A stretch of DNA of 64,000 nt from Selenomonadales bacterium (GCA_018335585.1 JAGXRZ010000040.1:23906-87905); one strand, 5' to 3'; positions 5,591-42,562 are shown, counted from the stretch's first letter. Made by a program: numbers and translations. Notes: a model not told the origin generated them from the letters alone.

Positions 5591-6363
5591 GGATTTCTAT
5601 CCATGAGTTAAAAAAGATGAAGGCGGCAGGTCAGAAGATAGCCGCCTTAACCGCTTACGACTACCCTACCGCCAAGCTCGTCGATGAGTGTGGCATCCCC
5701 ATCATCCTAGTAGGCGATAGCCTAGGCATGGTCGTACTCGGCCTTGAGTCCACTATTCCTGTGACCATGGAGGTTATGCTGCACCATGTGGCTGCTGTAG
5801 CGCGTGGGGCGAAGCGCGCCATTATCGTCGGCGATATGCCGTTTGGCACATACCACTTGTCGTCTGAGGACGCTCTGCGTAACGCCATACGCCTAGTGCA
5901 GCAAGGAGGCGCTACGGCCGTAAAGCTTGAGGGCGGCGTCACGGTCGCAGCTCAGGTAGAAAGAATCGTCTCGTCAGGCATTCCTGTCATGGGACATATC
6001 GGTCTAACCCCGCAATACGTGCATCAACTTGGCGGGTACAAAGTCCAAGGCAAATCAGCCGATGCGGCAGAACGATTGCTCGCCGATGCTAAGGCGCTCG
6101 AGAGCGCTGGCGTCTTCTCTGTGGTGCTTGAGTGCATGCCAAGCAGCCTTGCGGCAGAGATAAGCCAAAGCGTCGCCGTGCCGACGATTGGCATTGGCGC
6201 CGGGCCGCACTGCGACGGCCAAATCCAAGTGATTAGCGATGTGTTAGGGTTAAGCGACTACATCCCCAAACACGCCAAGCAGTTTGTTAAGCTGCCTGAC
6301 GTAATCCGCGGAGTGGTGCAAGCGTATGCCGATGAGGTGACGCGGGGAGTATTTGGCGCATGA
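5587..6363 (+). CDS. panB: 3-methyl-2-oxobutanoate hydroxymethyltransferase PanB
   Basis: 258 aa, TAYDYPTAK...VGDSLGMV motif region typical of PanB; start overlaps panD stop. Confidence 0.9.
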
Positions 6364-7250: not shown

Positions 7251-8792
7251 ATGCAGGGCAAGCACCAGCTCGTAATTATTCTCGATTTTGGCGGCCAATA
7301 CGCGCAGCTTATCGCCCGGCGCACCCGTGAGCTTGGAGTCTATTCTGAGATTTGGTCGCACCAGACGGGAGCTGTGGCCATTAAAGAGGCGCGTCCGCTG
7401 GCCGTTATCTTTTCCGGCGGGCCTAACTCGGTCTACGCCGACCATGCGCCCGGAGTGGACGAAGACATCTTCCACCTCGGCATCCCCATTCTCGGCATCT
7501 GCTACGGCATGCAGCTAATGGCGCGAGCGCTTGGCGGAGAGGTTGCCCCTACGCTACATAAGAGGGAGTACGGCCGCGCCGACGTAGTTGTCACCGAGCA
7601 AAGCGGCATCTTTGCCGGCCTGCCCGACCGTTTCCCGGTGTGGATGAGCCACGGCGATTCCGTAGTTAAACTGCCGCCCGAGTTTGTTAACGCGGCTCAC
7701 ACTGCAAACACGCCGGTCGCAGCCATGTACAGCTCTGCACTCAAAATGGTAGGCACACAGTTTCATCCCGAGGTTACACACGGCGCGTACGGCATGGATA
7801 TGTTAAAGAATTTCCTCTTTGACATTGCCGGGGCGGCAGGCGACTGGGGCATGAAGTCGTTTGTGTCCGAGGCTACTGCGGAAATTCAGCGCCTCGTTGG
7901 GGATAGCCAAGTTATGTGCGGCTTAAGTGGCGGTGTGGACTCGGCGGTGGCGGCAGTGCTTGTGCATCGCGCCGTAGGCCAGAAGCTCACCTCTATCTTT
8001 GTTGACCACGGCATGTTGCGCAAGGGCGAGGCCGAGCAAGTAGTAAAGACGTTTCGCGACCAATTAGGCATGAAATTAATCCACGTCGACGCGAGCGACC
8101 GTTTTCTTGCCAAGCTAGAAGGCATTACCGACCCAGAGCAAAAGCGCAAGATTATCGGGACGGAGTTCATTCGCGTCTTTGAGGAACAAGCCAAAGAAGT
8201 GAGTGCGGCTAAGTTCCTGGTGCAAGGCACGCTCTATCCCGACGTCATCGAGAGCGGTACCGCGACCGCAGCGACGATTAAGACTCATCACAATGTCGGC
8301 GGTCTCCCTAAGGACATGAAGTTTGAGCTGCTTGAGCCGCTTCGTCAGCTTTTTAAGGACGAAGTGCGTGCAATCGGGCGCAAGCTTGGATTGCCCGACG
8401 CCGTGGTGGACAGGCATCCGTTCCCAGGCCCCGGGCTAGCCGTACGCATTGTAGGCGAGATTACGCGGCCAAAGCTCGCCGTGTTGCGCGAGGCCGACCA
8501 CATCGTGCGCGAGGAGGTCGTGCGGGCCGGGCTGCACAAGGAGATATGGCAGTGCTTTGCCGTGCTCCCAGGCGTCCGCACTGTCGGGGTAATGGGGGAT
8601 GAGCGTACATATGCCGAGGTTATCGCGGTGCGCGCGGTGTCGTCGGTCGACGCCATGACCGCCGATTGGTACCGTATGCCGCACGAAGTGCTAGACGTCA
8701 TCTCCCGCCGGATTGTCAACGAAGTAAAGGGCGTAAACCGTGTCGTCTACGACATAACGTCCAAACCGCCCGGAACTATCGAGTGGGAATAA
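7251..8792 (+). CDS. guaA: GMP synthase (glutamine-hydrolysing) GuaA
   Basis: N-terminal class I glutamine amidotransferase plus SGGVDS PP-loop ATP pyrophosphatase motif; C-terminal ...PGTIEWE; TATAAT-like -10 and GGAAGGGGGAAGG RBS upstream. Confidence 0.95.
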
Positions 8793-8805
8793 TCTAGACG
8801 CACCA

Positions 8806-8843
8806 AAGTCCTGCAGGGAACGCTCTGCAGGACTTTGTTTTTT
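8806..8843 (+). terminator. Rho-independent terminator after guaA
   Basis: aagtcctgcag / ctgcaggactt 11-bp stem with 8-nt loop followed by TGTTTTTT. Confidence 0.8.
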
Positions 8844-8995
8844 GGGAAAATTGCGCCTCTTTGCAGGATATCCAACCGGCGGTAGCGAATAGTGCTCTAC
8901 CACAATGGAGGTGAGAAGTGTCAGCACGGTGTACAGGGTGGCGAATTTGTTGTGGGCTTACCAAATAGTTGCCATCTACTAAGGGAGGAGACGCA

Positions 8996-9514
8996 TTGGA
9001 GAACAGGGGGAGCGCGCCTAAGTTTGTGACGTTTCTGCACGAGCGGCTCGAGGCCATCCTGATGTGGCTAGTCTACCCGCTAGTCGCCGTCATGGTAGCA
9101 GAAATTGTTGCGCGGTATTTTTTCTTGCGCCCATTGCCGTGGGTGCGGGACGTGTCAGTTTGGCTTTTCGCTGTACCTTTTTTGCTCACAGTCGCGCACT
9201 ACTACAACAAGCGCGCCCACATCTCAGCTGAGGACTTGGTTTACGCCTTTCGCTTAAACGATGCGCAGCGCGCCACTATCGACCTAATTCACAACCTCAT
9301 CCTGCTAGCGGTGGCCGGGTTTCTCTTCTGGCCCGCGACGCAGGCGGTGCTGCGCTCATTTGCGCTGCAGGAGCTTTCCGGCATGACCACCTGGCGGCCC
9401 ATACTCTGGCCGTTTCGCGCCGTCATCCCCGCGGCCATGCTCTTGCTTGGGGCTCAGGCTGTAGTTGGGATCCTGGAGTCCGTACAGAAACTGCGGGGGG
9501 TGGATAAGCCGTGA
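8996..9514 (+). CDS. dctQ: TRAP transporter small permease (DctQ family)
   Basis: ~170 aa, four hydrophobic helices, precedes DctM; AGGGAGGAG RBS before TTG 8996 (ORF opens at 8969). Confidence 0.7.
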   Translation: MENRGSAPKFVTFLHERLEAILMWLVYPLVAVMVAEIVARYFFLRPLPWVRDVSVWLFAVPFLLTVAHYYNKRAHISAEDLVYAFRLNDAQRATIDLIHNLILLAVAGFLFWPATQAVLRSFALQELSGMTTWRPILWPFRAVIPAAMLLLGAQAVVGILESVQKLRGVDKP

Positions 9515-10839
9515 ATCCTGCAGTGCTTACGGCGGTGATGTTCGTCCTCCTCTTGGCTGGCATCGGCTCCGGCATGCCGGTAGCTTCAGTCTTAGCGGGT
9601 TTGGGTTTGTTCACTGGATTGGCCACCTGGGGTATGCGCTCCATGCCGATTATGGTTTCGGCCATCTTTGGCACGATGACCAGCGACGTGCTTATTGCCT
9701 TGCCGCTCTTTGTGTTTATGGGCTGTATGATGGAGGCCTCCGGTGTAGCGGACCGGCTCTTTATGAATCTGCGCGTGTTGTTAGGCTCTATGCGCGGCGG
9801 CTTAGGTATTGTGGCTATCTTGTTGGCTACAGTCTTGGCCGCAACCACTGGCATTATCGGGGCCTCGATAGTGATGATGGCGGCACTCGCACTGCCAAGC
9901 ATGCTAAAGGCCGAGTACGATAAGCCTTTGGCCGCGGGCATCATTTGCGCAGGCGGCAGTCTAGGCATCCTTATCCCGCCAAGTAACATGCTGATCATCT
10001 ATGCTCTGTCGGCAGGCGTTTCGGTCGTGTCGCTGTTTGCTGCGGCTGTTATTCCCGGCTTGTTGCTCGCTGCCTTGTATGTAGCTTATGTGGCTATTCG
10101 CTGTCACCTGCGGCCGGAGCTAGGTCCGCCGCTGCCGCCAGAAGAAAGAGGGAAAATCCGATTGATGCCTTTTCTGGGCGATTTGCTCACCTCCCTAGTG
10201 CCGCCCGTGCTGCTTATTGTCGCAGTGCTTGGCACTATCTTTCTAGGGATTGCCGCGCCGGTCGAAGCATCGGCGGCAGGCGCGTTTGGCGCGACGCTGC
10301 TAGCGGCCATGAACAAGCGGGTCAGCTTGGACGTGTTGAAAAAGGCTGCCCAGCATACCCTGCAGATCTCAAGCACCATTTTGTGGTTAGTGGTAGGCGC
10401 GAGTATGTTTACCTCGATCTTCCTCGTGCTCGGGGGAGGGCGGGTAGTGCACGATGCGATGATGAGTGTAGCTGGGGGCAATGCCTGGGTCGTTCTCGCC
10501 ATAATGATGGTCCTCCTCTTTGTCCTAGGTAAACTCATCTGTTGGGTAGGTATTCTGCTCATTACCGTCCCCATCTTCACCCCGATAGCGACCAGCCTCG
10601 GATTTAACCCGATTTGGTTTGCCTTGCTCGTGTGCGTTAACCTGCAGATGTCGCTCTTGACACCGCCTTTTGCTTACTCCATCTTCTACCTCAAGCAGGC
10701 GGCACCACCCGAAGTCACGCTGTTTCATATGTACAAGGGCGTGTGGCCGTTTATTGCGCTGCAGGCGGTGGGCTTACTACTCATCATCATTTTCCCAGAC
10801 TTGGTGCTCTGGCTTCCTAGCTTGCTCTATCAACGCTGA
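9511..10839 (+). CDS. dctM: TRAP transporter large permease (DctM family)
   Basis: 442 aa polytopic membrane protein with DctM-like pattern; start overlaps dctQ stop (translational coupling). Confidence 0.85.
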   Translation: MNPAVLTAVMFVLLLAGIGSGMPVASVLAGLGLFTGLATWGMRSMPIMVSAIFGTMTSDVLIALPLFVFMGCMMEASGVADRLFMNLRVLLGSMRGGLGIVAILLATVLAATTGIIGASIVMMAALALPSMLKAEYDKPLAAGIICAGGSLGILIPPSNMLIIYALSAGVSVVSLFAAAVIPGLLLAALYVAYVAIRCHLRPELGPPLPPEERGKIRLMPFLGDLLTSLVPPVLLIVAVLGTIFLGIAAPVEASAAGAFGATLLAAMNKRVSLDVLKKAAQHTLQISSTILWLVVGASMFTSIFLVLGGGRVVHDAMMSVAGGNAWVVLAIMMVLLFVLGKLICWVGILLITVPIFTPIATSLGFNPIWFALLVCVNLQMSLLTPPFAYSIFYLKQAAPPEVTLFHMYKGVWPFIALQAVGLLLIIIFPDLVLWLPSLLYQR

Positions 10840-12066: not shown

Positions 12067-12119
12067 GGGCTCTCCGTTTTCCGCCTTCCTCTTTCCTCCT
12101 CCGCTCGGGGCCGTAAGCT

Positions 12120-12182
12120 GTGAGTTGTGAGTTGTGAGTTATGAGTTGCGAGTTGTGAGTTGTGAGTTGTGAGTTGTGAGCC
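12120..12182. repeat. Heptamer tandem-repeat locus B: [GTGAGTT]x9
   Basis: gtgagtt x3, atgagtt, gcgagtt, gtgagtt x3, gtgagcc; preceded by a CT-rich tract; immediately upstream of the fur-family promoter. Confidence 0.9.
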
Positions 12183-15146: not shown

Positions 15147-15147
15147 C

Positions 15148-15528
15148 GCCAGCCGCCAGCCGCCAGCCGCCAGCCGCCAGCCGCCAGCCGCCAGCCGCCA
15201 GCCGCCAGCCGCCAGCCGCTGGCCGGCAGCGGAGCAGTGACGGGGTGGAAAGGTGGAAAGGTGGAAAAGTTAAAGGGGTAAGGGCTGTGAGCTGTGAGCT
15301 GTGAGGATAGGCTTTAGGCGTTAGGCGCTAGGGGAACGGGCTGTGAGCTTAAGCATTGAGCTGTGCACGAAGAGGAAGCGGATACCGCGGCGACGCGCTC
15401 TACTGGGCACTGAGCACTGGGCACTTCCCTACCAGGAGTCAGGAGCCAGCAGCTAGGAGCCCCTCGTCCTTCACGGAGCACGAAGCACGCTCCCTACTAG
15501 GATCCAGTAGCCAGTAGCCAGCCGCCCT
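15148..15528. repeat. Heptamer tandem-repeat locus C (~380 bp mosaic array)
   Basis: Blocks [GCCAGCC]x10, [GGTGGAAA]x3, [GTGAGCT]x3, [TAGGCNN]x3, [CTGGGCA/CTGAGCA]x3, [CAGGAGN]x4, [AGCACGN]x3, [CCAGTAG]x2; fills the whole interval between the leader terminator and the purB RBS. Confidence 0.9.
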
Positions 15529-23224: not shown

Positions 23225-23920
23225 GTGACACAACACTTCCCCAAGCGACAAGCGACAAGCGACAAGCGACATACGCCAAGCGACAAGCGACATCCCCCCC
23301 CCTTACGCCTTGCCGTCCTAGTCTCAGGCGGCGGAACTACTTTGCAGGGGCTAATAGACGCCATAGCGGCAGGCTCGCTCGGCGCGGAAATCGCCTTGGT
23401 CGTCAGTTCGCGGCGCGATGCTTTCGCCCTTGAGCGCGCGCGCCGCTCCGACATTCCTACCTGCGTACTTAGCAGGCGCGCTTTCACAACGCCCGAGCAA
23501 CACGATGCGGCCCTCGCCGGGCTACTGCAGCAACACCAAGTTGACCTCGTCGTCTTAGCGGGCTACTTGCTGCCCATAGGCCAAGCGACGCTAAGTGCGT
23601 TCCCGGGGCGGATTATAAACATTCATCCCAGTCTCCTGCCCGCCTTTGGCGGACGGGGATATTACGGGTCACGCGTACATACCGAAGTTCTGGAGCACGG
23701 CTGTAAGATTACCGGGGCTACCGTGCACTTTGTGGAGGCCGAGCTCGACACAGGACCCATAATTTTGCAGGGAGCCGTAGAAATAGAGGACGACGACACG
23801 AGCGAGTCGCTCGCAGCTAAGGTAGGAGAACTCGAGCGCGAGCTGTACCCAAGAGCCATTCAACTTTTTGCCGACGGCAAGCTCCGGCAAGTCGGGCGCA
23901 GGGTAACGATTCTAAAGTGA
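23225..23920 (+). CDS. purN: GAR formyltransferase PurN, with repeat-encoded N-terminal extension
   Basis: Conserved PurN core starts at LRLAVLVSGGG (~23303) and contains the HPSLLP motif. The only in-frame starts (GTG 23201, TTG 23216, GTG 23225) lie upstream of the heptamer array. ~26 extra residues (TQHFPKRQATSDKRHTPSDKRHPPP) are therefore translated from the CAAGCGA repeats and a C9 tract. Confidence 0.8.
   Translation: MTQHFPKRQATSDKRHTPSDKRHPPPLRLAVLVSGGGTTLQGLIDAIAAGSLGAEIALVVSSRRDAFALERARRSDIPTCVLSRRAFTTPEQHDAALAGLLQQHQVDLVVLAGYLLPIGQATLSAFPGRIINIHPSLLPAFGGRGYYGSRVHTEVLEHGCKITGATVHFVEAELDTGPIILQGAVEIEDDDTSESLAAKVGELERELYPRAIQLFADGKLRQVGRRVTILK
23242..23302. repeat. Heptamer tandem-repeat locus D: [CAAGCGA]x4, catacgc, [CAAGCGA]x2, then cat+C9, inside the purN 5' coding region
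   Basis: Copy number taken from the ORF-track translation (KRQATSDKRHTPSDKRHPPP), which requires four plus two units followed by nine C. Confidence 0.8.
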
Positions 23921-27229: not shown

Positions 27230-28359
27230 CTAAACCAAACTCGTCCGCCGCTCTGCGCACAATCCTACCCGGGGGAACCATCGGTATCCTTGGCGGCGGT
27301 CAACTGGGGCGTATGACGGCCATGGCCGCTAAGCAAATGGGTTACCGGGTGGTCTGTTTAGACCCGCAGCCAAACTCCCCCTGCGGGCAGGTCTGTGACG
27401 CCCAGATTCAAGGGTCGTTTGACGATTACACCGCGGCGCGCGCACTGGCGAAGCAGTCCGACGTCTGTGTGTATGAATTTGAGAATATCAATGCTGATGT
27501 AGTGGCAGAGCTAGAGCGAGAGTTTAACGTGCCGCAGGGAAGTTTCCTGTTGCGCGTGACGCAAAACCGCATCAGCGAGAAAGCGCACCTCCGAGAACAG
27601 GGCTTCCCCGTGGTGCCTTATCGCGTGGTTGACGGCCGCGCGGAATTAGCGGCGGCGGCAGAGGAGTTAAAGTACCCGGTCGTGCTTAAGTCTGCTACCG
27701 GCGGCTACGACGGCAAGGGCCAAGCGGTGCTTAGGTCGCCGGCTGACTTAGGAAACGTTACTATCAGCGGCCTCCAGGTGCTAGAAAAGTTCTTGACGTT
27801 AACGGGTGAGGTTTCTGTCGTCGTGGCGCGACGTAGAGATGGTGAAACCGCAGCCTTTCCGGTTGGGGAGAATGTGCATCGCCACAATATCTTACATACT
27901 ACCGTCGTTCCTGCCCGTTTAAGCCAAGCATTGCAGGCCCAAGCCACCGAACTGGCCATAGGCATTGCCGAGTCGCTCGGTGTAGTTGGGCTCCTGGCAG
28001 TAGAGATGTTTCTTACGCCGGAAGGCATTATCGTAAACGAGCTCGCGCCGCGCCCCCATAACTCCGGCCACTACACCCTCGGCGCCTGCGAGACCTCGCA
28101 GTTTGAGCAGTTTGTGCGTGCGGTGTGTAACCTGCCGCTAGGCCCTACAACTCTCCTCTACCCCGCGGTGATGGTCAACATCTTAGGCGAGCATATGGCT
28201 GGTCTTATGACCCAGTTCGCTACACTCCCCCCAAACGTCAAAGTCCACCTTTACGGCAAAAGCGGTACACCTGTCCCGCGACGCAAGATGGGGCATCTGT
28301 TGATTAGGACTGACACTCCAGACCAGACAACCGCTTGGGCGGAAGAGGTGTTAGTCTAA
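27226..28359 (+). CDS. purK: N5-CAIR synthetase PurK
   Basis: 377 aa ATP-grasp protein; overlaps purE stop. Confidence 0.9.
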   Translation: MTKPNSSAALRTILPGGTIGILGGGQLGRMTAMAAKQMGYRVVCLDPQPNSPCGQVCDAQIQGSFDDYTAARALAKQSDVCVYEFENINADVVAELEREFNVPQGSFLLRVTQNRISEKAHLREQGFPVVPYRVVDGRAELAAAAEELKYPVVLKSATGGYDGKGQAVLRSPADLGNVTISGLQVLEKFLTLTGEVSVVVARRRDGETAAFPVGENVHRHNILHTTVVPARLSQALQAQATELAIGIAESLGVVGLLAVEMFLTPEGIIVNELAPRPHNSGHYTLGACETSQFEQFVRAVCNLPLGPTTLLYPAVMVNILGEHMAGLMTQFATLPPNVKVHLYGKSGTPVPRRKMGHLLIRTDTPDQTTAWAEEVLV

Positions 28360-28370
28360 AACACAAAACT

Positions 28371-28399
28371 TTGACATAGGTAAAAAAGAGCAGTATAAT
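28371..28399 (+). promoter_or_regulatory. Consensus sigma-A promoter TTGACA-17-TATAAT driving fic
   Basis: ttgaca taggtaaaaaagagcag tataat, 25 nt upstream of the fic start, immediately after the purK stop. Confidence 0.65.
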
Positions 28400-28423
28400 A
28401 CCTACGTTGAGGAGGTGTGGGTC

Positions 28424-29494
28424 GTGAACGAGCCAAAATTACCTATGTTGCCGCCTCGTGCCGATCTGGAAAGCAGGGCGGCACTTAAGCAGTTGGCCAG
28501 GGCTAACCGCGCTTTAGCTGAACTAAAAGGTTATGCGAGTACGATTCCTAATCAACATATGTTGATTAATGCGGTCATGATTAAGGAGGCCAAGGATAGT
28601 TCAGCTATCGAAAACATAATAACTACACACGACGACCTCTATCGGGCGATGAGTAACGCTGGTAAAGCGAGTATCGCCGCTAAGGAAGTCGTCAGCTATA
28701 GGGAAGCCTTATGGCATGGCTATCAATCGGTCAGAGCAAGGCAAGTGCTCACAACCTCGATGATCATCGAAATCCAAGAAATGATAGAGAAGAATACTGC
28801 TGGTTTAAGGAAGTTGCCTGGAACAGTCTTGCGCAACGAAGCTACTGGTGAGATCGTTTATACTCCACCATCTACCGAGCACGACATTAAACAACTACTG
28901 GCAAATCTAGAGACATACATCAATGAAGACGACGATGATGTAGATCATCTGATTAAGCTCGCGGTCCTGCATTACCAATTTGAAGTTATCCATCCTTTTT
29001 ATGATGGCAATGGGCGCACCGGCAGGATAGTCAACGTCCTGTATCTAGTCTTGAAAGGCCTGCTTGAGAGCCCGGTACTCTATCTGAGTAGTTTTATTAT
29101 CAGGAACAAGCCTGCCTATTACCGTCTGTTACAGGAAGTGCGCACGCATGACAACTGGGAAGAATGGATTCTATACATTCTGACTGGCATAGAACAGACT
29201 GCTGCGGAGACCTTGTTCTTGATAAGAAAGATCAATCAAGAAGCAGAAGCAATGAGCGCAGAGATTCAGGCTAGGCTGCCCAAGATATATTCACAAGAAC
29301 TGATGAGTCTGCTTTTCTATGAGTTCTATACTAAGACCCACTATATAGAGAAGGGCTTGGCGGTAACCAGAAAGACAGCCGTTAGCTACCTATCAGCGTT
29401 AGAGAGGGAAGGCTTTTTGAGCTCAGAAAGAATCGGCAAAGAGCGCATCTACCTCAACCGGAGACTCTACGATTTGGTGAGGGCGGGGCAATAA
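28424..29494 (+). CDS. fic: Fic/Doc family protein, class II (N-terminal inhibitory helix), C-terminal winged HTH
   Basis: Canonical HPFYDGNGRTGR Fic motif; SSAIEN matches the [ST]xxxE[GN] inhibitory motif N-terminal of the Fic core; gene is visibly AT-richer than its flanks; GAGGAGG RBS 8 nt before GTG 28424. Confidence 0.85.
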   Translation: MNEPKLPMLPPRADLESRAALKQLARANRALAELKGYASTIPNQHMLINAVMIKEAKDSSAIENIITTHDDLYRAMSNAGKASIAAKEVVSYREALWHGYQSVRARQVLTTSMIIEIQEMIEKNTAGLRKLPGTVLRNEATGEIVYTPPSTEHDIKQLLANLETYINEDDDDVDHLIKLAVLHYQFEVIHPFYDGNGRTGRIVNVLYLVLKGLLESPVLYLSSFIIRNKPAYYRLLQEVRTHDNWEEWILYILTGIEQTAAETLFLIRKINQEAEAMSAEIQARLPKIYSQELMSLLFYEFYTKTHYIEKGLAVTRKTAVSYLSALEREGFLSSERIGKERIYLNRRLYDLVRAGQ

Positions 29495-29495
29495 G

Positions 29496-30515
29496 ATGAA
29501 CTTCACAAAAATGCACGGCTTAGGAAACGACTTTATCGTCGTCGATATGTTTGACGGGATGGAAATTCTCAAGCCGCATGGTGTTGCGCGCGCTATCTGC
29601 CACCGCCACTTTGGCGTGGGCGCTGATGGGCTGGTGCTAGTCCACCCGTCTGAGCGCGCCGATTGTCGCATGCAAATCTTTAATTCCGACGGCAGCGAGG
29701 CCGAGTCTTGCGGCAACGCCTTGCGCTGTGTGGCGCGGTTTATGCAGCTTAAAGGTAGGGTGCAGGGCACTGCCGTCCGCGTGGAGGCGTTAGCCGGCGT
29801 CTACAGCGCTGAGCTTGTGCCTGCGGCGCACGGCGAGACGCTTGTCAAAGTCAACATGGGTGCGCCATTGCTTCATCCTGCGGCTATCCCAGCCAACGTG
29901 GCAGGCGATGGACCTGTCTTAGACCTGAGTATCTCGACACCCCACGGGGACTTCTCCGGCGTATTAATTAACAGCGGCGTGCCGCATGTCGTCATCTTCG
30001 TCCCGGACCTAGCTGCCTTTGACTTTGTTCCCGCCGGGCAGGCCATTGAGAAGCATCCGCTCTTCCCGGCCGGCATTAACGTAGATTTTGTGCAAGTTAT
30101 TAGCCGCGACTATTTAAAGGTGCTGGTGTGGGAGCGCGGCGCAGGCGCGACGCTAGCCTGCGGCACGGGAGCCGCTGCCGTGGCTGTGGCCGCTAACCTT
30201 ACCGGGCGCGCCGACCGCCGCCTAACGGTAGAGCTGCCGGGTGGTGAGCTCTATATGGAGTGGGACGAAAAGACCGGCCATGTCTATATGACCGGTCCCG
30301 CAGCCGTAGCCTTTACAGGGCATGTGCCACTAGCAATGCTTGTAAAATCATATGTCGTTTGTCCCGACCACCTCGACGAAGCCATTGAGGAATTTCTCGA
30401 TGCCTTCGAGTCGCCCCCGGACATCCACCGGCTAAAAGACATTACCTTTACAGAGTGGACGGCGCCTCCTGCCTGCCACTTTTGTTCACGTGCGCCGGAG
30501 TTTTTGGTGGTCTAA
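29496..30515 (+). CDS. dapF: Diaminopimelate epimerase DapF (with ~55-aa C-terminal extension)
   Basis: NSDGSEAESCGNALRC and GTGAAAVAVAA DapF catalytic-Cys regions; ATG 1 nt after the fic stop with no obvious RBS; continues ~55 aa past the usual DapF C-terminus. Confidence 0.85.
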   Translation: MNFTKMHGLGNDFIVVDMFDGMEILKPHGVARAICHRHFGVGADGLVLVHPSERADCRMQIFNSDGSEAESCGNALRCVARFMQLKGRVQGTAVRVEALAGVYSAELVPAAHGETLVKVNMGAPLLHPAAIPANVAGDGPVLDLSISTPHGDFSGVLINSGVPHVVIFVPDLAAFDFVPAGQAIEKHPLFPAGINVDFVQVISRDYLKVLVWERGAGATLACGTGAAAVAVAANLTGRADRRLTVELPGGELYMEWDEKTGHVYMTGPAAVAFTGHVPLAMLVKSYVVCPDHLDEAIEEFLDAFESPPDIHRLKDITFTEWTAPPACHFCSRAPEFLVV

Positions 30516-30995
30516 GTGAAGATTACGATTGTCGCCGTAGGCACCTTAAAAGAAATCTTCTGGCGAGAAGCGGCTAAGGAATACCTAAAGCGCCTTGCCG
30601 GCTATGCGCACGTCGCGATTACAGAGCTTCCCGAATGCCGCGTAGGGCAAGACGCAAACGCCGGCGACGAGGCGCGAGCGCGCGCAGCGGAAGCACAGGC
30701 CATCGCTAAGGCCGTACCCCAAGGGAGCGTGCCAGTCCTTTTGGCCATTAACGGCGAGCAGCGGAGCTCCGAGCAATGGGCCGAATTTTTCGCCGCAGAG
30801 CAACTCGCGTCGCGCTCACATCTCACCTTTATAGTCGGCGGCTCGACCGGCGTCGCCGACAGCGTGAAATCTTTGTCTCACCACCAGTTCTCCCTCGGCC
30901 CGCTTACTCTTCCCCACCAACTCGCACGCATCGTCCTGCTCGAGCAAATCTACCGCGCGTTTCGCATTCTGCGGAATGAGCCGTACCATAAGTAA
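30516..30995 (+). CDS. rlmH: 23S rRNA (pseudouridine1915-N3)-methyltransferase RlmH
   Basis: 159 aa SPOUT protein ending ...QIYRAFRILRNEPYHK, typical of RlmH; GTG start abuts the dapF stop. Confidence 0.85.
   Translation: MKITIVAVGTLKEIFWREAAKEYLKRLAGYAHVAITELPECRVGQDANAGDEARARAAEAQAIAKAVPQGSVPVLLAINGEQRSSEQWAEFFAAEQLASRSHLTFIVGGSTGVADSVKSLSHHQFSLGPLTLPHQLARIVLLEQIYRAFRILRNEPYHK
30840..30865. repeat. Direct repeat copy 1 (ggctcgaccggcgtcgccgacagcgt), inside rlmH 3' region
   Basis: 21-bp exact (26-bp near-exact) match to 31960-31985. Confidence 0.8.
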
Positions 30996-30996
30996 C

Positions 30997-31030
30997 GGCG
31001 AGCCCTGACAGGACTCGTCATTTTTTCTCT
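30997..31030 (+). terminator. Rho-independent terminator after rlmH
   Basis: Imperfect stem ggcgagccctg / caggactcgtc followed by ATTTTTTCTCTT. Confidence 0.55.
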
Positions 31031-31148
31031 TGTAGGCTATATTCTCCCTACACATTCAGCTCAGTTGAAGATACTTACTGCTATTGCGTTCTAGAGAAGG
31101 GAAATAGTAAGCCTTCGACGAATAGAGCTTTGATAGGGAGGTGTTGTG

Positions 31149-31943
31149 ATGGAAGCTAAGTGGAAGCGCGACGCCATCATACGCTACAGTGCGGTCGTAT
31201 GTATTGCGGCTCTAGTCATGTCTAATGTCTGGTTGATGATTAAGGTAAACGATCTTATACGTGCGATTGGTTCTTTGCCGAGGCATATTCCGAGTCCTAC
31301 CACCTACGTCAACCTCAGCCCCTTGTATACAGGGGTTGTTGACGAGCGTGTTCTGATGGTCTCGGAAACGATGGGCGAAAAACTAATAGTTAGATACAAC
31401 TTCACCCTCACGGAACGAATTCCCGGTTACGTCTTAGTTGTCCGCTTTAGAGCAAGTCAGACAGCCGCTTGGGAACAAGTTCGCCCCGCGCCTCTCTACG
31501 GGCTGGAATACGAAGCCTTCCTTCACGTGAATCCGGCTCTCAGCTATGAGTACCAAGTTGTTCAAATGCTTGGAGACCAAGTCATGAGGGCCACCACCCC
31601 AGGCTTCATCAAAGTTGGTGAATGGGTGGGGACCTCCACCTTAAACATCGTGCGGTCCGGTTATCCCAACGAACGTAAGGTGCGAGTCGCTGTGTACCAG
31701 CCGCAATTTTCGGCGCTTAGAGCTTGGCAGGTAGATAAGGTCACTATCAAGCTCGACAATGCGCCTGAGGCAGTCGTTCTCGAAATGTTTCGCGGCGATC
31801 TAACCGGTTACAAGTTCGATGAAACAGTCTACCAGGCAGCTAGAGCGGTGACAGTCACCGCCTACTACGGGGATGGCGAGACCCGTAGTGTGACATTCGA
31901 CCCGCACAACCATTTCGAGCAACCGATAATAAGACGCGATTAG
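31149..31943 (+). CDS. Hypothetical membrane-anchored exported protein
   Basis: N-terminal hydrophobic anchor (YSAVVCIAALVMSNVWLMI) then ~230-aa domain with no recognisable motif; AGGGAG RBS; AT-richer than core genome. Confidence 0.55.
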   Translation: MEAKWKRDAIIRYSAVVCIAALVMSNVWLMIKVNDLIRAIGSLPRHIPSPTTYVNLSPLYTGVVDERVLMVSETMGEKLIVRYNFTLTERIPGYVLVVRFRASQTAAWEQVRPAPLYGLEYEAFLHVNPALSYEYQVVQMLGDQVMRATTPGFIKVGEWVGTSTLNIVRSGYPNERKVRVAVYQPQFSALRAWQVDKVTIKLDNAPEAVVLEMFRGDLTGYKFDETVYQAARAVTVTAYYGDGETRSVTFDPHNHFEQPIIRRD

Positions 31944-31959
31944 GAATAGGCGGTGGGAC

Positions 31960-31985
31960 GGCCTGACCGGCGTCGCCGACAGCGT
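31960..31985. repeat. Direct repeat copy 2 (ggcctgaccggcgtcgccgacagcgt)
   Basis: Matches 30840-30865; together they bracket the rlmH 3' end plus the hypothetical gene 31149-31943. Confidence 0.8.
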
Positions 31986-32041
31986 TTTGCGATCATGTCC
32001 CCGCTCAATACGGGGTGTGTTCCGGAAGGAGTCTTGGATTA

Positions 32042-32773
32042 ATGAAGAACAGCGACATTCTTGAGGATGTTTCTTGTCTGACTGCGAAGGCTGTTGCTCA
32101 CTATTGGGGAACGCGAACAACGCAGAGACAGAAACAAGAACATAGCGGTAAGATCGACCAGGGCCTACGCAGCGCAGTAACCGGAGGAGCCCAGATGGAC
32201 GGTTTCATTGATCTGGTTGTTGAACTAGTAGTGCGAGCCGGAATCCCTGAACGATGCATATTTAGAAAGAAGTCTGTTGAGCTCCCCGGCTACTTTAGGC
32301 CAACCAAAGAGTGGGATCTACTTGTTGTTAAAGAACAGACTTTGGTTGCTGCAGTTGAAGCTAAGTCACAGGTGGGCCCTTCATTCGGTAACAACTTTAA
32401 CAATCGAACTGAGGAAGCGCTAGGTAGCGCGGTTGATCTCTGGACTGCCTATCGAGAGAATCTTTATCTATCAAGTCCTCAACCGTTCTTAGGTTTCCTC
32501 TTCATGCTGGAAGACTGCAAGGCCTCGAACAGACCTGTCATGGTTCAGGAACCGCATTTCGAGGTTGCCAAGGAGTTTATCGGGGCGTCCTATAAGCGCA
32601 GATACGAGTTGCTTTGCCGAAAACTAGTCCTTGAAAGGCACTACACAGCCTCCGCATTTCTCGTATCGTCAACTGACAGAGGTAGTGCAGGAACCTTTAC
32701 CGTACCGGCGGAGGATCTATCTGTTGAGCGTTTCGCTAGAGTGTTAGTCAGCCATCTCGGAGCATTTGTATGA
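32042..32773 (+). CDS. Type II restriction endonuclease-like protein (PD-(D/E)xK fold, BamHI/BglII-like)
   Basis: WDLLVV...VEAKSQ acidic/EAK block and SFGNNFNNRTEEALG resembling the BamHI catalytic region; directly coupled (ATGA overlap) to a DNA methyltransferase; GGAAGGAG RBS before ATG 32042. Confidence 0.5.
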   Translation: MKNSDILEDVSCLTAKAVAHYWGTRTTQRQKQEHSGKIDQGLRSAVTGGAQMDGFIDLVVELVVRAGIPERCIFRKKSVELPGYFRPTKEWDLLVVKEQTLVAAVEAKSQVGPSFGNNFNNRTEEALGSAVDLWTAYRENLYLSSPQPFLGFLFMLEDCKASNRPVMVQEPHFEVAKEFIGASYKRRYELLCRKLVLERHYTASAFLVSSTDRGSAGTFTVPAEDLSVERFARVLVSHLGAFV

Positions 32774-33687
32774 AGCCAGTACAGACGACGCACAGGCTTG
32801 TCAATGGCGACGCACGAGATCTCTCATTCCTCAGTGATGCGTCTGTCCATCTGGTGGTAACTTCGCCCCCCTACTGGAATCTCAAGCGGTATAACGAGAG
32901 CCCCGGTCAGATGGGCCACATACAAGATTATGAGACGTTTCTCCTAGAGCTTGAGAAAGTGTGGAAGCAGGTGTACCGTGTCCTAGTTCCGGGCGGTCGC
33001 CTGGTGTGCGTTGTTGGCGACGTCTGTGTTTCTAGGCGCGAGTTCGGACGCCACTTAGTTTTCCCGCTCCATGCGGACATTGCAGTTATCTGCCGCCGTA
33101 TGGGGTTTGACAACCTTAACCCGATAATTTGGCATAAGATTACCAACGCTTCTTATGAAGTTGCCAATGGCTCGAAATTCCTCGGCAAGCCGTATGAGCC
33201 GAATGCGATTATCAAGAATGACATTGAGTTCATCTTGATGCAACGCAAACCTGGAGGTTATAGGAAGCCAAGCGAGTCGCAACGAGAGGCAAGCAAGATC
33301 AGCAAAGAAGACTTTGACCGCTGGTTTCAACAAATGTGGCACATTCCCGGCGCGTCAACAAAGCACCATCCAGCACCGTATCCATTAGAGCTCGCAGCGC
33401 GTCTGGTGCAAATGTTCTCATTTACCGAAGACACAGTGCTCGACCCCTTTTGTGGCTCCGGCACCACTATGGTCGCCGCACTAAGGGCCGGACGTAACAG
33501 CATTGGGATTGAGATTGACCCCCTCTATTGCCGCATGGCGGCGCAGTATCTAAAGGCTGAGAGCAACAACCTGTTCTCTGCTAACAGCACACTGCTCTTT
33601 GAGAGGTCTTCCGTTGAAGCTACCGGAGCCCTAAGAGAGGACGATGCCCTTTATGAAGTACGCGCTGCCAAGAAGAGACTCGAATAG
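32770..33687 (+). CDS. DNA methyltransferase, beta-class (motif IV SPPY before motif I DPFCGSGTT), probably N4-cytosine
   Basis: TSPPYWN (motif IV) near N-terminus and VLDPFCGSGTT (motif I) near C-terminus; this order defines beta-group amino-MTases, and SPPY is usual for N4C enzymes. Confidence 0.8.
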   Translation: MKPVQTTHRLVNGDARDLSFLSDASVHLVVTSPPYWNLKRYNESPGQMGHIQDYETFLLELEKVWKQVYRVLVPGGRLVCVVGDVCVSRREFGRHLVFPLHADIAVICRRMGFDNLNPIIWHKITNASYEVANGSKFLGKPYEPNAIIKNDIEFILMQRKPGGYRKPSESQREASKISKEDFDRWFQQMWHIPGASTKHHPAPYPLELAARLVQMFSFTEDTVLDPFCGSGTTMVAALRAGRNSIGIEIDPLYCRMAAQYLKAESNNLFSANSTLLFERSSVEATGALREDDALYEVRAAKKRLE

Positions 33688-33717
33688 GATGCGCTGTCCG
33701 CCACAGCGATGGTGGGC

Positions 33718-34116
33718 TTACTTTACCGCCACCGTCTTCGTCCAGCCGGTGAAACCTAGCACGTACCGCACTACTACCGCCCGCCCGTCCTTCTGTAGAT
33801 AACCAACCAACAGCACTCGGCGGTCCTCATCGTGTAGGATAAGTGGCGGAAACCGCGTCGTTTCCCGATACTCCCTTTGAGCGTCTTGAATGGCTGCATG
33901 CATTAAGGCCTCTCCTGTTAGACCTGCCACATGGAGTGTCGGCATCTGGCTCCAGTTTGTGACAACCTCGTACCTGCCGAGGTCAATTTCGTGCTTTTCC
34001 ACGAGCTGGCGGTGCGCTTCCCTGACCTGGTCCTCCGTAGGCTCTAGGGTGTTAGGAGCGATTGGGCTGCCGAGGTCAGGAGCGGCGGCATCCCACTCTG
34101 GCAAAGAGAACCCCAA
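33718..34116 (-). CDS. Hypothetical protein (132 aa)
   Basis: Open frame convergent with the MTase; no recognisable motif; overlaps the protease-like fragment by ~40 bp. Confidence 0.35.
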   Translation of the reverse strand: MGFSLPEWDAAAPDLGSPIAPNTLEPTEDQVREAHRQLVEKHEIDLGRYEVVTNWSQMPTLHVAGLTGEALMHAAIQDAQREYRETTRFPPLILHDEDRRVLLVGYLQKDGRAVVVRYVLGFTGWTKTVAVK

Positions 34117-34626
34117 TCAGCTTGCCGTTCTGCACGATTGGGCTACCGCTCATGCCTGGCTCAATTCTATCCTTCGCATGTAGCGGAGATACGAGTAGCA
34201 ACTGCTCGCCGCGGAACTGCATATACCCGACTACCCTTACCGTAAAAGGGCCAGCAGCTCCCGGGAGAACTGTGGCAACCTCTCCCACAACGATGTCCGC
34301 GGTGCCGCCTAGCCGAATAAGTTCCGTGTTGACGCGGGTTCCTTTAGGCATGCCCAGTGTAACGCCCTGGTCGCTATTGACCAGCACCTTGACATTGCAG
34401 AAGATGACGTTGTCGCTCTCTGCCCGCCAAGTCCGACTTCTCGGTCCGGGGCCTGCACTTCCCAGTAGGGAGAAAGCGTTGGATCTGTGGCCATAGATAG
34501 TGCCATGCTCCACCCAAGCAGCAGAAGCCCTAAGACGTTAAGGCCAACGAAAGCCAGCACGAGCTGAGTAGTTCTTCGCATGAAACACCACCCCCAAACG
34601 ACTGAAGTGCATGTAATATATTCCAC
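34076..34626 (-). pseudogene. SpoIVB-like (peptidase S55) serine peptidase fragment, apparently frameshifted/truncated
   Basis: Two overlapping same-strand ORFs in different frames. 34309-34626 encodes a signal/TM segment (MRRTTQLVLAFVGLNVLGLLLLGW). 34076-34513 encodes EPGMSGSPIVQNGKLIGV, matching the SpoIVB catalytic-Ser block (GMSGSPIIQNGKVIG), but ends ~20 aa later. No single intact frame. Confidence 0.4.
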
Positions 34627-34721
34627 TCACAGGCGGATAACTCCTTCATAATTAACAAACAGCTCCTCTACGCCCAATAGGCATATCCCGTGTCATTGTC
34701 CGCCTTAAACACAACCCCCTG

Positions 34722-34756
34722 CAGTAATCTCCTGCAGGGGGGTCTGTTATCTTGAT
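34722..34756 (-). terminator. Hairpin terminator downstream of the FMN-binding gene
   Basis: ccccctgcag..ctgcaggggg 10-bp stem; on the minus strand followed by TTGTGTTTAA. Confidence 0.4.
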
Positions 34757-34809
34757 GGCCAGAGGGGGCTCAGTTCATGTAGGCTGCGCCGCAGCCTTTA
34801 TTTTGTCTA

Positions 34810-35250
34810 TCAGGTGGGGCAAGCTGGGGCGTGCTTTAGAGCTTGTTCAATGGCCTTAAGAATGCCAATACTTGAGGTAGTCGCGCCGCTTACGGTATCG
34901 ACACTGACATTGCCGCGCGCCACAACTCTTTCGATGATGCCCTCCGCGGCCATGCGTGCATAGCGATTACTGCGATTCCTAATAATCTCCACGCCTGTAA
35001 TGCGGCGGTTGTGAACCTCAACCTCAACTTTGTACTTAGTGAGCCCAAGGCGGTACTCACCTATGTAGTGGCCCTCATGAATAGAAGAGAAGTCAATAGG
35101 TTCAATTGTCACCGCTAGCGCCGCGGTGGCCTCATAGCTGAGCTGGAACATATAGCCGATGCCAAGAAGTGCCACCAGCACAACTACAGCCACACCTGCA
35201 TAGATCATGTGCTTGTTCGTGACTGCTTTAGATTTTGCCAAACATATCAC
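34810..35250 (-). CDS. FMN-binding domain protein (NqrC/RnfG-like, membrane anchored)
   Basis: N-terminal TM helix and the flavin-attachment motif VDTVSGATTSS. Confidence 0.7.
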   Translation of the reverse strand: MICLAKSKAVTNKHMIYAGVAVVVLVALLGIGYMFQLSYEATAALAVTIEPIDFSSIHEGHYIGEYRLGLTKYKVEVEVHNRRITGVEIIRNRSNRYARMAAEGIIERVVARGNVSVDTVSGATTSSIGILKAIEQALKHAPACPT

Positions 35251-37700: not shown

Positions 37701-38102
37701 GTGAGCAGCCTGACAAACAAGCGAGTGCTGATCATCGACGACCAAGCTGGGATTAGGGCGTTGTTTCGCGAAGTGTTTGGCATTTTCGGTTGTGAAGTAG
37801 TGGAAGCAGGAAATGGCTATGAGGGCGTAGAGGTCGCTTCCGAGTGTGCGCCCGATATTATCTTTCTTGATATGAAAATGCCCGGGCTCTCCGGCATTGA
37901 GACGCTACGCATCTTGCGGCGCGACAAAGAAGTAGGCGTGCCGGTGGTGCTAGTAACTGCTTACCAAGAGGCAGATATGATCAACGAAGCCGAGCGCCTC
38001 GGTGTGGCGGCGAGCCTTTTGAAGCCCTTTGACGTAGAAGAGCTGTGCGGCCTGATGCGCAGTCTAACCACTCCGCTCCCGCGAAAAGTTGCCGGGATGT
38101 AA
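37701..38102 (+). CDS. Single-domain response regulator (CheY-like receiver)
   Basis: 133 aa REC domain with conserved DD...D (phospho-acceptor in FLDMKMPG) ...T...K pattern; no output domain. Confidence 0.85.
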   Translation: MSSLTNKRVLIIDDQAGIRALFREVFGIFGCEVVEAGNGYEGVEVASECAPDIIFLDMKMPGLSGIETLRILRRDKEVGVPVVLVTAYQEADMINEAERLGVAASLLKPFDVEELCGLMRSLTTPLPRKVAGM

Positions 38103-38187
38103 AGTGCTCTGGTAAGATGAATATGGCGACGGACACCCGTACCCTGCTAGGCCGCGCGGTGTCTTTTGTTTTAAGGAGTTGACAGCG

Positions 38188-42562
<4,375 letters not shown>

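What the first reader, a model, noticed from the sequence alone, without database searches (positions are those of the whole stretch)
30840..34760. Low-GC accessory islet after rlmH: exported unknown, type II R-M pair, unknown ORF, degraded SpoIVB-like peptidase
Between rlmH and the FMN-binding/yedF genes, composition drops visibly and the genes are non-core. They are a membrane-anchored exported protein (31149-31943), a PD-(D/E)xK endonuclease-like gene ATGA-coupled to a beta-class SPPY methyltransferase (32042-33687), a convergent 132-aa unknown (33718-34116), and a frameshifted/truncated S55 SpoIVB-like peptidase (34076-34626). The left end is marked by a 21-26-bp direct repeat whose first copy lies inside the rlmH 3' end. 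This pattern is typical of integration at the 3' end of a housekeeping gene, but no integrase remains. Either a decayed mobile element or a compact defence islet.
Basis: partly seen in the sequence, partly recalled or inferred. Interest (0 to 1): 0.6.

Follow-up and report, generated by a model that had tools for sequence, protein, structure and literature searches.

The report
Ordinary restriction-modification cassette in variable islet
The 3.7 kb after rlmH is a real strain-variable insert. It holds an ordinary XhoI/PaeR7I-type restriction-modification gene pair wedged between a rare membrane-protein gene and a dead protease gene, and it is not the relic of an integrase-driven element.

Summary
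About 3.7 kb (window ~31000-34695) lies between the rlmH stop codon and a terminator hairpin. Relatives go straight from rlmH to the FMN-binding gene, across 86-116 nt. GC is 0.525 against 0.569 for the rest of the window.

The islet is composite.
- An older pair consists of a membrane-anchored protein with two FN3-like domains and a convergent S55-like serine peptidase. This pair also occurs elsewhere, intact and without R-M.
- It is split by a 1.77-kb cassette: an XhoI/PaeR7I-family endonuclease, ATGA-coupled to a class-beta SPPY methyltransferase (TTHA0409-like).

The "132-aa unknown" is not a separate gene. [quoted passage not shown]

The 27-nt repeat is real but does not bracket the islet. 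Its second copy sits at the left junction of the R-M cassette. It is missing from a sister arrangement in which R-M abuts rlmH directly.

rlmH is neither interrupted nor replaced, and there is no att pair and no integrase.

Verdict: an ordinary, apparently intact type II R-M module in an intergenic hot spot for accessory and defence genes. Low novelty.

The parts
30516..30995 (+). rlmH, the intact left flank (not part of the insert)
   Evidence: PF02590 at E 6.6e-48. It is colinear with the L167 orthologue up to and including the stop codon.
30839..30865 (+). Copy 1 of the 27-nt direct repeat, inside rlmH. It encodes GSTGVADSV.
   Evidence: Orthologous rlmH genes carry it with 1-3 mismatches.
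31013..34693 (.). The accessory islet as a whole, about 3.7 kb. It is absent from L167, L189 and L190. The boundaries are good to about +/-15 nt.
   Evidence: Empty-site alignments. In L170 a further gene is inserted exactly at 34692|34694.
31149..31943 (+). Rare membrane-anchored protein: an N-terminal transmembrane helix followed by two FN3/Ig-like beta-sandwich domains
   Evidence: No family hit. Only 19 representative clusters among 1.84 billion proteins. AlphaFold2 pLDDT 92.4, with tandem FN3 matches in the PDB. dN/dS 0.14 against L173.
31953..33720 (+). R-M cassette as an insertion unit. It is absent from L173/L174, where the membrane-protein gene and the peptidase gene are 18 nt apart.
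31959..31985 (+). Copy 2 of the 27-nt repeat, at the left junction of the R-M cassette. Weaker similarity to rlmH extends back to about 31950.
   Evidence: It is absent from the L170/L172 arrangement, where rlmH 30992 is joined to 31991.
32042..32773 (+). Type II restriction endonuclease of the XhoI/PaeR7I family, apparently intact
   Evidence: PF04555 at E 2.5e-89. At least 8000 homologues, 71-78% identical at the same 243-aa length, some named 'PaeR7I family' by NCBI. 50% identical to plasmid-borne homologues. dN/dS 0.12 against L175.
32770..33687 (+). Class-beta N6A/N4C DNA methyltransferase (SPPY ... DPFCGSG), overlapping the R gene in ATGA
   Evidence: PF01555 at E 9.4e-43. PDB 2zie (TTHA0409) at E 1.9e-119. 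Motif positions. dN/dS 0.03-0.19.
33696..33717 (+). Hairpin plus T-rich tail after the M gene, terminator-like, at the right junction of the cassette
33718..34581 (-). Pseudogene of a signal-anchored S55-like serine peptidase with a C-terminal domain. The reading frame switches -2 / -1 / -2.
   Evidence: tblastn of intact P0123 matches residues 1-55, 98-205 and 233-357 in three frames. Alignment.
34416..34420 (-). Lesion A: deletion of about 130 nt (P0123 residues 56-97, including the invariant His of ...VAxAHA...), with a frameshift
   Evidence: L170/L172 lack this lesion.
34097..34099 (-). Lesion B: deletion of about 83 nt (P0123 residues 206-232) with a frameshift. It produces the stop at 34076 and the apparent separate 132-aa ORF.
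   Evidence: It is shared by every R-M-bearing variant and absent from the R-M-less L173.
34059..34134 (.). Polymorphic 76-nt segment bounded by a 14-nt direct repeat, CGATTGGGCT(G/A)CCG, which encodes GSPI on the minus strand. It is deleted in L166, L169 and L184-187, giving an in-frame fusion ORF.
   Evidence: (family D7)
34708..34748 (.). Bidirectional terminator hairpin (CCCCCTGCAG...CTGCAGGGGG). It is native spacer shared with the empty site and marks the right flank.
   Evidence: (pair I5)
34810..35250 (-). FMN-binding protein gene, the right flank (not part of the insert)
   Evidence: PF04205. It lies directly next to rlmH in L167, L189 and L190.

Best explanation
The rlmH / FMN-binding-gene spacer is a hot spot for gene insertion in this Bacillota (Peptococcaceae-like) lineage. 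The islet was built in steps, by recombination that left no att sites and needed no integrase.

Proposed order of events:
1. A two-gene module landed between the rlmH stop codon and the shared terminator hairpin. It holds a membrane-anchored FN3-like protein gene and a convergent signal-anchored S55-like peptidase gene.
2. A bare two-gene type II R-M unit was inserted into the roughly 20-nt gap between those two genes. The unit is an XhoI/PaeR7I-family endonuclease followed by a class-beta methyltransferase. Its left junction carries 27-36 nt copied from rlmH, about 1.1 kb away. I read this as junction filler (template switching or illegitimate recombination), not a recombinase site.
3. The peptidase gene then decayed through two frameshifting deletions, while R, M and the membrane-protein gene stayed intact under purifying selection.
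4. Sister strains diversified the locus further.
   - One lost the membrane-protein gene and the rlmH stop codon in a 998-nt deletion, and gained a DUF234 ATPase gene at the right boundary.
   - Others lost 76 nt more of the peptidase.

Functionally, the active part is a conventional R-M system. The methyltransferase protects host sites and the endonuclease cuts unmodified incoming DNA. The site is probably CTCGAG by family, which is inferred and not shown.

The gene content, the empty site, the variant arrangements, the lesions and the junction sequences are shown. The order of events, the filler mechanism, enzyme activity and specificity are inferred.
For: Empty site and polarity
- L167 has no islet.
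- L189 and L190, which are more distant, also have none. The empty arrangement is therefore ancestral.

Composite nature
- L173 and L174 carry the membrane-protein gene and an intact 386-aa peptidase gene 18 nt apart. They have no R-M and sit in a different neighbourhood, next to GNAT and Big_2 genes.
- The R-M pair recurs as a unit in unrelated contexts, L175 and L176. Nucleotide homology there is limited to the two ORFs.

R-M identity and integrity
- Pfam, PADLOC and PDB matches.
- At least 8000 homologues of the same length across phyla.
- R and M are full-length in every variant.
- dN/dS is 0.03-0.19, apart from one very close pair.

Pseudogene
-.

Repeat as junction feature
- Copy 2 lies at the cassette's left edge.
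- It is missing in L170/L172, which share the same right junction.
- It is closest to the window's own rlmH copy.

Hot spot
- Four arrangements occupy one site.
- In L170 a DUF234/ATPase_2 gene is inserted at 34692|34694.

Recent sharing
- 31006-34058 differs by 1 SNP in 3053 nt between the window and L166 or L169.
- The flanks differ by 3-6%.

Composition
-.

Precedent
- R-M units that insert without mobility genes are documented (PMC2853133).
Against: - No activity or methylation data exist.
- CTCGAG is not avoided in the window: 16 sites against 17.4 expected. This fits recent arrival, full protection or a different specificity, but it gives no positive support.
- The filler interpretation of the 27-nt repeat is an inference from three arrangements. 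A donor-flank origin is not excluded.
- The GGTGGG found on both sides of the cassette could be a short target duplication, a microhomology, or part of the rlmH-like patch.
- All relatives are metagenome contigs. Some mosaic identity could reflect strain-mixed assembly. Long near-identical tracts also occur elsewhere, for example 37851-40350, so the identical tract is not specific to the islet.
- The unit of step 1 is seen in only one other context.
Confidence: 0.78

Rival explanations
1. The islet is the decayed remnant of an integrative element that entered the 3' end of rlmH by site-specific recombination. The 27-nt repeat is its att core and the integrase has since been lost.
For: - There is a highly significant direct repeat with one copy inside a housekeeping gene.
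- GC is low.
- Gene content is accessory.
Against: - The repeat brackets only the rlmH 3' end plus the membrane-protein gene (1120 nt), not the islet.
- The rlmH 3' end after copy 1 is the orthologous one, about 84% identical to L167 like the rest of the gene. No displaced rlmH 3' end follows copy 2.
- The empty site shows the insertion lies after the stop codon.
- There is no third copy in the 64 kb at up to 3 mismatches.
- No recombinase domain occurs in any islet ORF or in the variants.
Confidence: 0.04
2. The 27-36-nt rlmH-like patch came in with the cassette. In a closely related donor strain the R-M pair had been inserted inside rlmH. The fragment that later recombined into the spacer between the membrane-protein and peptidase genes carried that donor flank. 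This could have happened by homology-facilitated illegitimate recombination.
For: - The patch is directly contiguous with the cassette.
- R-M sits directly against rlmH in L170/L172.
- There is microhomology (GGTGGG) at both cassette ends.
Against: - In L170/L172 the junction is at the last sense codon of rlmH, 127 nt downstream of the 27-mer. That arrangement cannot be the donor as it stands.
- L170-type shares the window's right junction and lesion B, so it is most simply derived from the window type by deletion.
- No contig with rlmH truncated at the 27-mer was found among 58 database blocks holding this exact R protein. Only 21 contigs were read and 10 places shown.
Confidence: 0.2
3. The islet is ancestral to the group and was precisely deleted in the 'empty' relatives. 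In that case it would be a lost core region rather than a gained accessory one.
For: The rlmH to FMN-binding-gene synteny could not be polarised beyond relatives with about 72% RlmH identity. More distant genomes lack the synteny altogether.
Against: - Three empty contigs come from two divergence levels (86% and 72% RlmH), each with a short spacer.
- GC is lower than in the flanks.
- The two-gene module sits in a different neighbourhood in L173.
- The R-M homologues are spread over unrelated phyla at 71-78% identity. That pattern does not fit vertical descent.
Confidence: 0.04
4. The strain-level patterns are artefacts of assembling mixed populations. This covers the near-identical 3-kb tract, the 76-nt polymorphism and the different pseudogene states. 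On this view they are not real recombination or decay events.
For: - All sequences are metagenome contigs.
- Blocks of identity alternate with blocks of 3-6% divergence along the contigs. This is typical of consensus assemblies of co-existing strains.
Against: - The window sequence is reproduced exactly in four assemblies made with different pipelines and samples.
- The alternative states recur in several independent runs: L166, L169, L184-187 against L180 and L182.
- The gene-level conclusions (R-M identity, pseudogene, empty site) do not depend on these patterns.
Confidence: 0.1

Closest known systems
XhoI / PaeR7I family type II restriction-modification systems (Pfam PF04555; characterised members recognise CTCGAG, stated from general knowledge of the family)
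   Same: - The endonuclease matches the family profile end to end at E 2.5e-89.
- It is 50% identical to the homologues on mobilizable Pseudomonas, Aeromonas and Klebsiella plasmids.
- It has a D...EAK (PD-(D/E)xK-type) motif.
- It forms a two-gene unit with a methyltransferase.
   Different: - On the plasmid examined (pOXA-198), the methyltransferase is a 555-aa protein with an Eco57I-type methylase domain and precedes R.
- Here R comes first and is ATGA-coupled to an unrelated 305-aa class-beta enzyme.
- Specificity is untested here.
TTHA0409 of Thermus thermophilus HB8 (PDB 2ZIE/2ZIF/2ZIG), a class-beta amino-methyltransferase
   Same: - E 1.9e-119 over residues 7-261.
- Class-beta motif order, with SPPY as motif IV. 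TTHA0409 is treated as a dimeric class-beta enzyme in PMC7544214.
   Different: - The depositors call TTHA0409 a 'putative modification methylase', and its target was not checked here.
- The present protein has a C-terminal tail of about 45 aa beyond the match.
- Whether it makes N4-methylcytosine or N6-methyladenine cannot be read from SPPY alone.
Bare R-M units that behave as mobile elements without linked mobility genes (Furuta, Abe and Kobayashi 2010, PMC2853133)
   Same: - Only R and M are inserted.
- An empty site exists in a relative.
- The insert has lower GC.
- No integrase or transposase is present.
- Rearrangements occur next to the insert.
   Different: - The class best described there has a duplication longer than 30 bp flanking the R-M on both sides.
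- Here the only long repeat has one copy at the cassette's left edge and the other 1.1 kb upstream in rlmH. At most 6 bp (GGTGGG) flank the cassette.
SpoIVB (peptidase family S55)
   Same: - GMSGSPIVQNGKLIG motif around the presumed catalytic Ser.
- Invariant His and Asp upstream.
- Three of five intact homologues pass the Pfam gathering score, at 25.3-28.9 bits.
- The best PDB sequence hit is SpoIVB, 9lnf, at E 0.005.
   Different: - No PDZ domain was detected.
- There is an unrelated C-terminal domain of about 125 aa.
- Similarity to S55 is marginal.
- The window copy is a pseudogene that lacks the His segment.
Defence-gene hot spots or islands at conserved intergenic positions
   Same: - One conserved spacer carries different cargo in different strains: nothing; membrane protein + peptidase; the same plus R-M; or R-M + DUF234 ATPase.
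- A SoFic gene is inserted 2.5 kb upstream.
   Different: - It is very small, with 0-4 genes.
- Only the R-M pair, and the nearby SoFic, match known defence models.
- The membrane protein and the peptidase have no defence annotation.

Membership tests
Type II R-M system, XhoI/PaeR7I endonuclease family | Full-length match of the endonuclease to the family profile | tested here: met
   PF04555 at E 2.5e-89, profile positions 1-190 of 191. PADLOC REase_II at 4.1e-89.
Type II R-M system, XhoI/PaeR7I endonuclease family | A cognate DNA methyltransferase gene adjacent to and co-oriented with R, with catalytic motif IV and the SAM-binding motif I | tested here: met
   ATGA overlap at 32770-32773. 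SPPY at residue 32 and DPFCGSG at residue 225. PF01555. PDB 2zie at 1.9e-119.
Type II R-M system, XhoI/PaeR7I endonuclease family | Cleavage and protective methylation at a defined site (CTCGAG for characterised members) | not testable with these tools
   This needs a methylome or enzyme assays. The indirect test, site avoidance, was uninformative: 16 observed against 17.4 expected.
Integrative genomic island at the 3' end of a housekeeping gene | Direct repeats (attL/attR) bracketing the whole inserted segment | tested here: not met
   The repeat copies lie at 30839-30865 and 31959-31985, whereas the islet runs to about 34693. There is no further copy at up to 3 mismatches.
Integrative genomic island at the 3' end of a housekeeping gene | The insertion point lies inside the target gene, with the gene's 3' end supplied by the element | tested here: not met
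   rlmH is orthologous and colinear to its stop codon. Homology to the empty site ends after the stop.
Integrative genomic island at the 3' end of a housekeeping gene | An integrase or recombinase gene, or a recognisable remnant of one | tested here: not met
   No such domain occurs in any islet ORF or in the variant loci L166, L169, L170 and L173.
Peptidase family S55 (SpoIVB) | Pfam PF05580 score at or above the gathering threshold (25 bits) | tested here: inconclusive
   The window fragment scores 23.2 bits. Intact homologues score 22.0-28.9 bits, and three of five pass.
Peptidase family S55 (SpoIVB) | Intact catalytic residues (Ser and His) | tested here: not met
   The Ser motif is present. 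The segment with the invariant His (P0123 residues 56-97) is deleted and the frame is broken twice.
Peptidase family S55 (SpoIVB) | A PDZ domain N-terminal to the protease domain, as in SpoIVB (stated from general knowledge) | tested here: not met
   No PDZ hit in five intact homologues at E up to 1.
R-M insertion with long target duplication (Furuta et al. 2010) | A repeat longer than 30 bp flanking the R-M on both sides, single-copy in the empty site | tested here: not met
   Only GGTGGG (6 bp) lies on both sides of the cassette. The 27-nt repeat does not flank it.

The most novel reading that the evidence does not exclude
The rlmH-derived 27-36-nt patch fused to the left end of the cassette could be the footprint of how integrase-less R-M units move. 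The mechanism would be template switching or homology-facilitated illegitimate recombination seeded from a nearby conserved gene. The series of natural intermediates seen here would then make that mechanism directly testable: the empty site, the module without R-M, the module with R-M, and R-M abutting rlmH. A second, independent possibility concerns the rare FN3-like membrane protein and the S55-like signal-anchored peptidase. They could form a previously undescribed extracytoplasmic two-gene module that became dispensable once the R-M pair arrived.
Probability: 0.12. Interest if true: 0.45.

Novelty: new member of a known kind. Interest (0 to 1): 0.2.

Why it matters
- **Annotation.** Three points need correcting. 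The 132-aa ORF should not be called a gene. The peptidase is a pseudogene. The region should not be labelled an integrative-element remnant.
- **Biology.** This is a compact, well-resolved natural example of a bare type II R-M pair settling into a strain-variable spacer. The empty site and several intermediate arrangements are available from public metagenomes.
- **Wider significance.** It illustrates known behaviour of R-M systems and small defence hot spots and does not reveal a new one. The R-M pair is likely to be a barrier to genetic manipulation if the organism is ever cultivated.

Tried and rejected
- **Metagenome scan with RlmH.** It returned only relatives at 52% identity or less, which were useless for synteny. 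Close relatives had to be reached through the protein search plus contig look-ups.
- **Genome scan with DapF.** The closest MAG contigs (L005-L007) end within about 1.5 kb of dapF, before rlmH. They showed only the oadB and Fic differences.
- **CTCGAG avoidance.** None was found, and a 64-kb window gives little statistical power.
- **PDB sequence search for the endonuclease.** No solved relative was found.
- **Rfam on the whole window.** No hits, so no RNA gene explains the repeat.
- **Promoter scan.** There is no convincing sigma-70-like site upstream of R. The one hit (31015-43) lies upstream of the membrane-protein gene.
- **AlphaFold2 model of the intact peptidase homologue from five sequences.** The pLDDT was 49, so the model was not used for fold search.
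- **Copy 2 as a relic of a second rlmH gene.** In-frame translation after the 27-mer shows no RlmH similarity, and there is no nucleotide similarity beyond about 36 nt. Rejected.
- **Terminal inverted repeats of the cassette.** Only a 10-mer, G(C/G)(C/G)GACAGCG, is shared in inverted orientation. This is too weak to claim.
- **Co-occurrence of the peptidase with the membrane protein in distant homologues (L177/L178).** Not found.

Full report
**What is in the sequence**

- The region 30999-34700 has GC 0.525. The rest of the window has 0.569 +/- 0.017 for stretches of the same length. That gives z -2.65, and no background stretch is as low.
- The drop is carried by the first gene (0.505) and the R-M pair (0.516). 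The peptidase remnant (0.557) is not unusual.
- The window is a metagenome contig. Four separately produced assemblies are 100% identical to it over 12-21 kb around the locus. The frameshifts are therefore unlikely to be errors of one assembly.

**The genes**

- **31149-31943.**
  - It has no Pfam, NCBIfam or PADLOC match.
  - It has only 19 related clusters among 1.84 billion representative proteins.
  - An AlphaFold2 model from those relatives is confident (pLDDT 92.4). It shows an N-terminal transmembrane helix and two FN3/Ig-like beta sandwiches.
- **32042-32773.**
  - It is a full-length XhoI/PaeR7I-family endonuclease: PF04555 at E 2.5e-89 and PADLOC REase_II at 4e-89.
  - More than 8000 homologues exist. 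The top 120 listed hits are mostly 243 aa and mostly 71-78% identical. They include Planctomycetota, Thermodesulfobacteriota and Nitrospirota.
  - It is 50% identical to plasmid-borne homologues.
- **32770-33687.**
  - It overlaps the R gene in ATGA.
  - It is a class-beta amino-methyltransferase with SPPY at residue 32 and DPFCGSG at residue 225.
  - It is very close to the crystallised TTHA0409, PDB 2zie, at E 1.9e-119.
- **Integrity.** R and M are full-length in every variant of the locus. They show purifying selection, with dN/dS 0.03-0.19 in the informative comparisons.
- **Site avoidance.** CTCGAG is not avoided: 16 sites against 17.4 expected.

**The minus-strand ORFs are one pseudogene**

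A conceptual translation found intact homologues of 358-438 aa. They have this layout:
- a signal anchor (MRKTTQLVLAFVGLNVLGLLLLGW);
- a protease core with an invariant His (..MVAxAHA..), an invariant Asp and GMSGSPIVQNGKLIG;
- a C-terminal domain of about 125 aa.

Three of the five intact homologues pass the Pfam S55 threshold. The best PDB sequence hit is SpoIVB, at E 0.005.

The window matches residues 1-55, 98-205 and 233-357 in three successive frames.
- One deletion of about 130 nt removes the His segment.
- A second deletion of about 83 nt creates the stop at 34076. It also creates the illusion of a separate 132-aa gene.

**Comparison with relatives**

- **L167** (RlmH 86% identical, flanks 81-84% nt) has purK-dapF-yyzF-rlmH. 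Then come 86 nt containing the hairpin CCCCTGCAG...CTGCAGGGG, then the FMN-binding gene, yedF and the rest in the same order as the window.
- **L189 and L190** (RlmH 72%) show the same rlmH / FMN-binding-gene adjacency. The empty state is therefore ancestral.
- **The islet** is an insertion of about 3.7 kb. It lies between the rlmH stop codon and the hairpin found in the window at 34708-34748.
- **rlmH** is not interrupted.

**Four arrangements of the same site**

1. Empty: L167, L189, L190.
2. Membrane protein + R + M + peptidase pseudogene: the window, L166, L169 and L180-187.
3. L170-172.
   - rlmH is joined at its last sense codon to the sequence just upstream of R. RlmH is thereby extended to 183 aa.
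   - R and M follow, then a peptidase gene with only the second lesion.
   - A DUF234/ATPase_2 gene is inserted exactly at the islet's right boundary.
4. L173/L174, in a different neighbourhood (GNAT, Big_2). The membrane-protein gene and an intact 386-aa peptidase gene are convergent and 18 nt apart, with no R-M.

From these arrangements I draw three conclusions.
- The R-M cassette (window about 31953-33720) was inserted between two older neighbours.
- L170-type shares the window's right junction and the second lesion. It is most simply a 998-nt deletion derivative of the window type.
- Close R-M homologues elsewhere (L175 at 87% nt, L176 at 74% nt) share nucleotide similarity only within the two ORFs. 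This is the pattern expected of a minimal mobile R-M unit (PMC2853133).

**The repeat**

- The repeat is real: 25 of 27 positions match, and none of 100 shuffles produced a match.
- Its second copy (31959-31985) sits at the left junction of the R-M cassette.
- It is absent from L170-type, and the empty site has only the rlmH copy.
- No RlmH-like sequence follows it.
- It is closest to the window's own rlmH copy.
- I therefore read it as junction filler copied from nearby DNA during an illegitimate insertion event.
- A donor-flank origin remains possible, with probability about 0.2.
- It is not an att site of the islet.

**Population pattern**

- Between the window and L166 or L169, positions 31006-34058 differ by one SNP in 3053 nt. 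rlmH and the 5' part of the peptidase gene differ by 3-6%. This points to recent recombinational sharing of the segment.
- The right end of the tract coincides with a 76-nt polymorphism bounded by a 14-nt repeat.
- Two caveats apply. Similar identical tracts occur elsewhere on the contigs, and all the data come from metagenome assemblies.

**Verdict**

- The finding is real as an accessory islet.
- Its active content is an ordinary type II R-M system.
- The integrative-element interpretation fails its defining tests.
- Novelty is low. The locus is a tidy example of known R-M mobility and of a small insertion hot spot.

Noticed in passing
window 28415-29494 (+): A SoFic-type Fic/DOC gene (PADLOC SoFic E 6e-114) with GC 0.458 (z -4.4) is inserted between purK and dapF. 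It is absent from L006, L007, L167 and L170. It is present in L005 at 93% nt identity although that contig's pur genes are only 71% identical. It is a second defence-type insertion, 2.5 kb from the islet.
   Followed up: partly
window 29496-30515 (+): dapF is fused in frame to a YyzF-like peptide (PF14116), giving a 339-aa ORF. Relatives have separate genes: dapF, oadB (OAD_beta) and yyzF in L005-7, L189, L191 and L192, or dapF and yyzF without oadB in L167. The window lineage therefore lost oadB and about 97 nt of spacer.
   Followed up: partly
window 12119-12180, 15147-15230, 23242-23292, 40387-40432, 61405-61525; also 2880-2988 and 15374-15485: Many intergenic spacers carry tandem arrays of different heptanucleotides (TGTGAGT, CGCCAGC, CAAGCGA, CGTGCGT, CTCACAA, ACAAGCG), with 6-12 copies each. 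A composite array of this kind fills the purK-dapF spacer in L170, where the window has the Fic gene. They resemble the heptamer STRR repeats of cyanobacteria, a comparison made from memory.
   Followed up: no
L170 (reverse complement) 8748-10155, equivalent to window 34692|34694: A 459-aa ATPase_2 + DUF234 gene (GC 0.511) is inserted exactly at the right boundary of the islet in a sister strain. A DUF234 fragment also lies upstream of the 87%-identical R-M pair in L175.
   Followed up: partly
L170 (reverse complement) ~5900-5990 and L172 (reverse complement) 1-130, equivalent to window 30992|31991: In these strains the rlmH stop codon is deleted. RlmH is predicted to carry a 24-aa C-terminal extension (183 aa) that reads into the leader of the R gene.
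   Followed up: no
L169 ~503-520, equivalent to window ~30785: One extra T in a T-run of rlmH shortens the predicted protein to 154 aa in one Logan assembly. It could be an assembly error or a real frameshift.
   Followed up: no
window 27266-31015 vs L165; window 37851-40350 vs L169: Contigs from related samples alternate between long stretches identical to the window and stretches 3-6% diverged. This indicates either frequent recombination among co-existing strains or strain-mixed consensus assembly.
   Followed up: no
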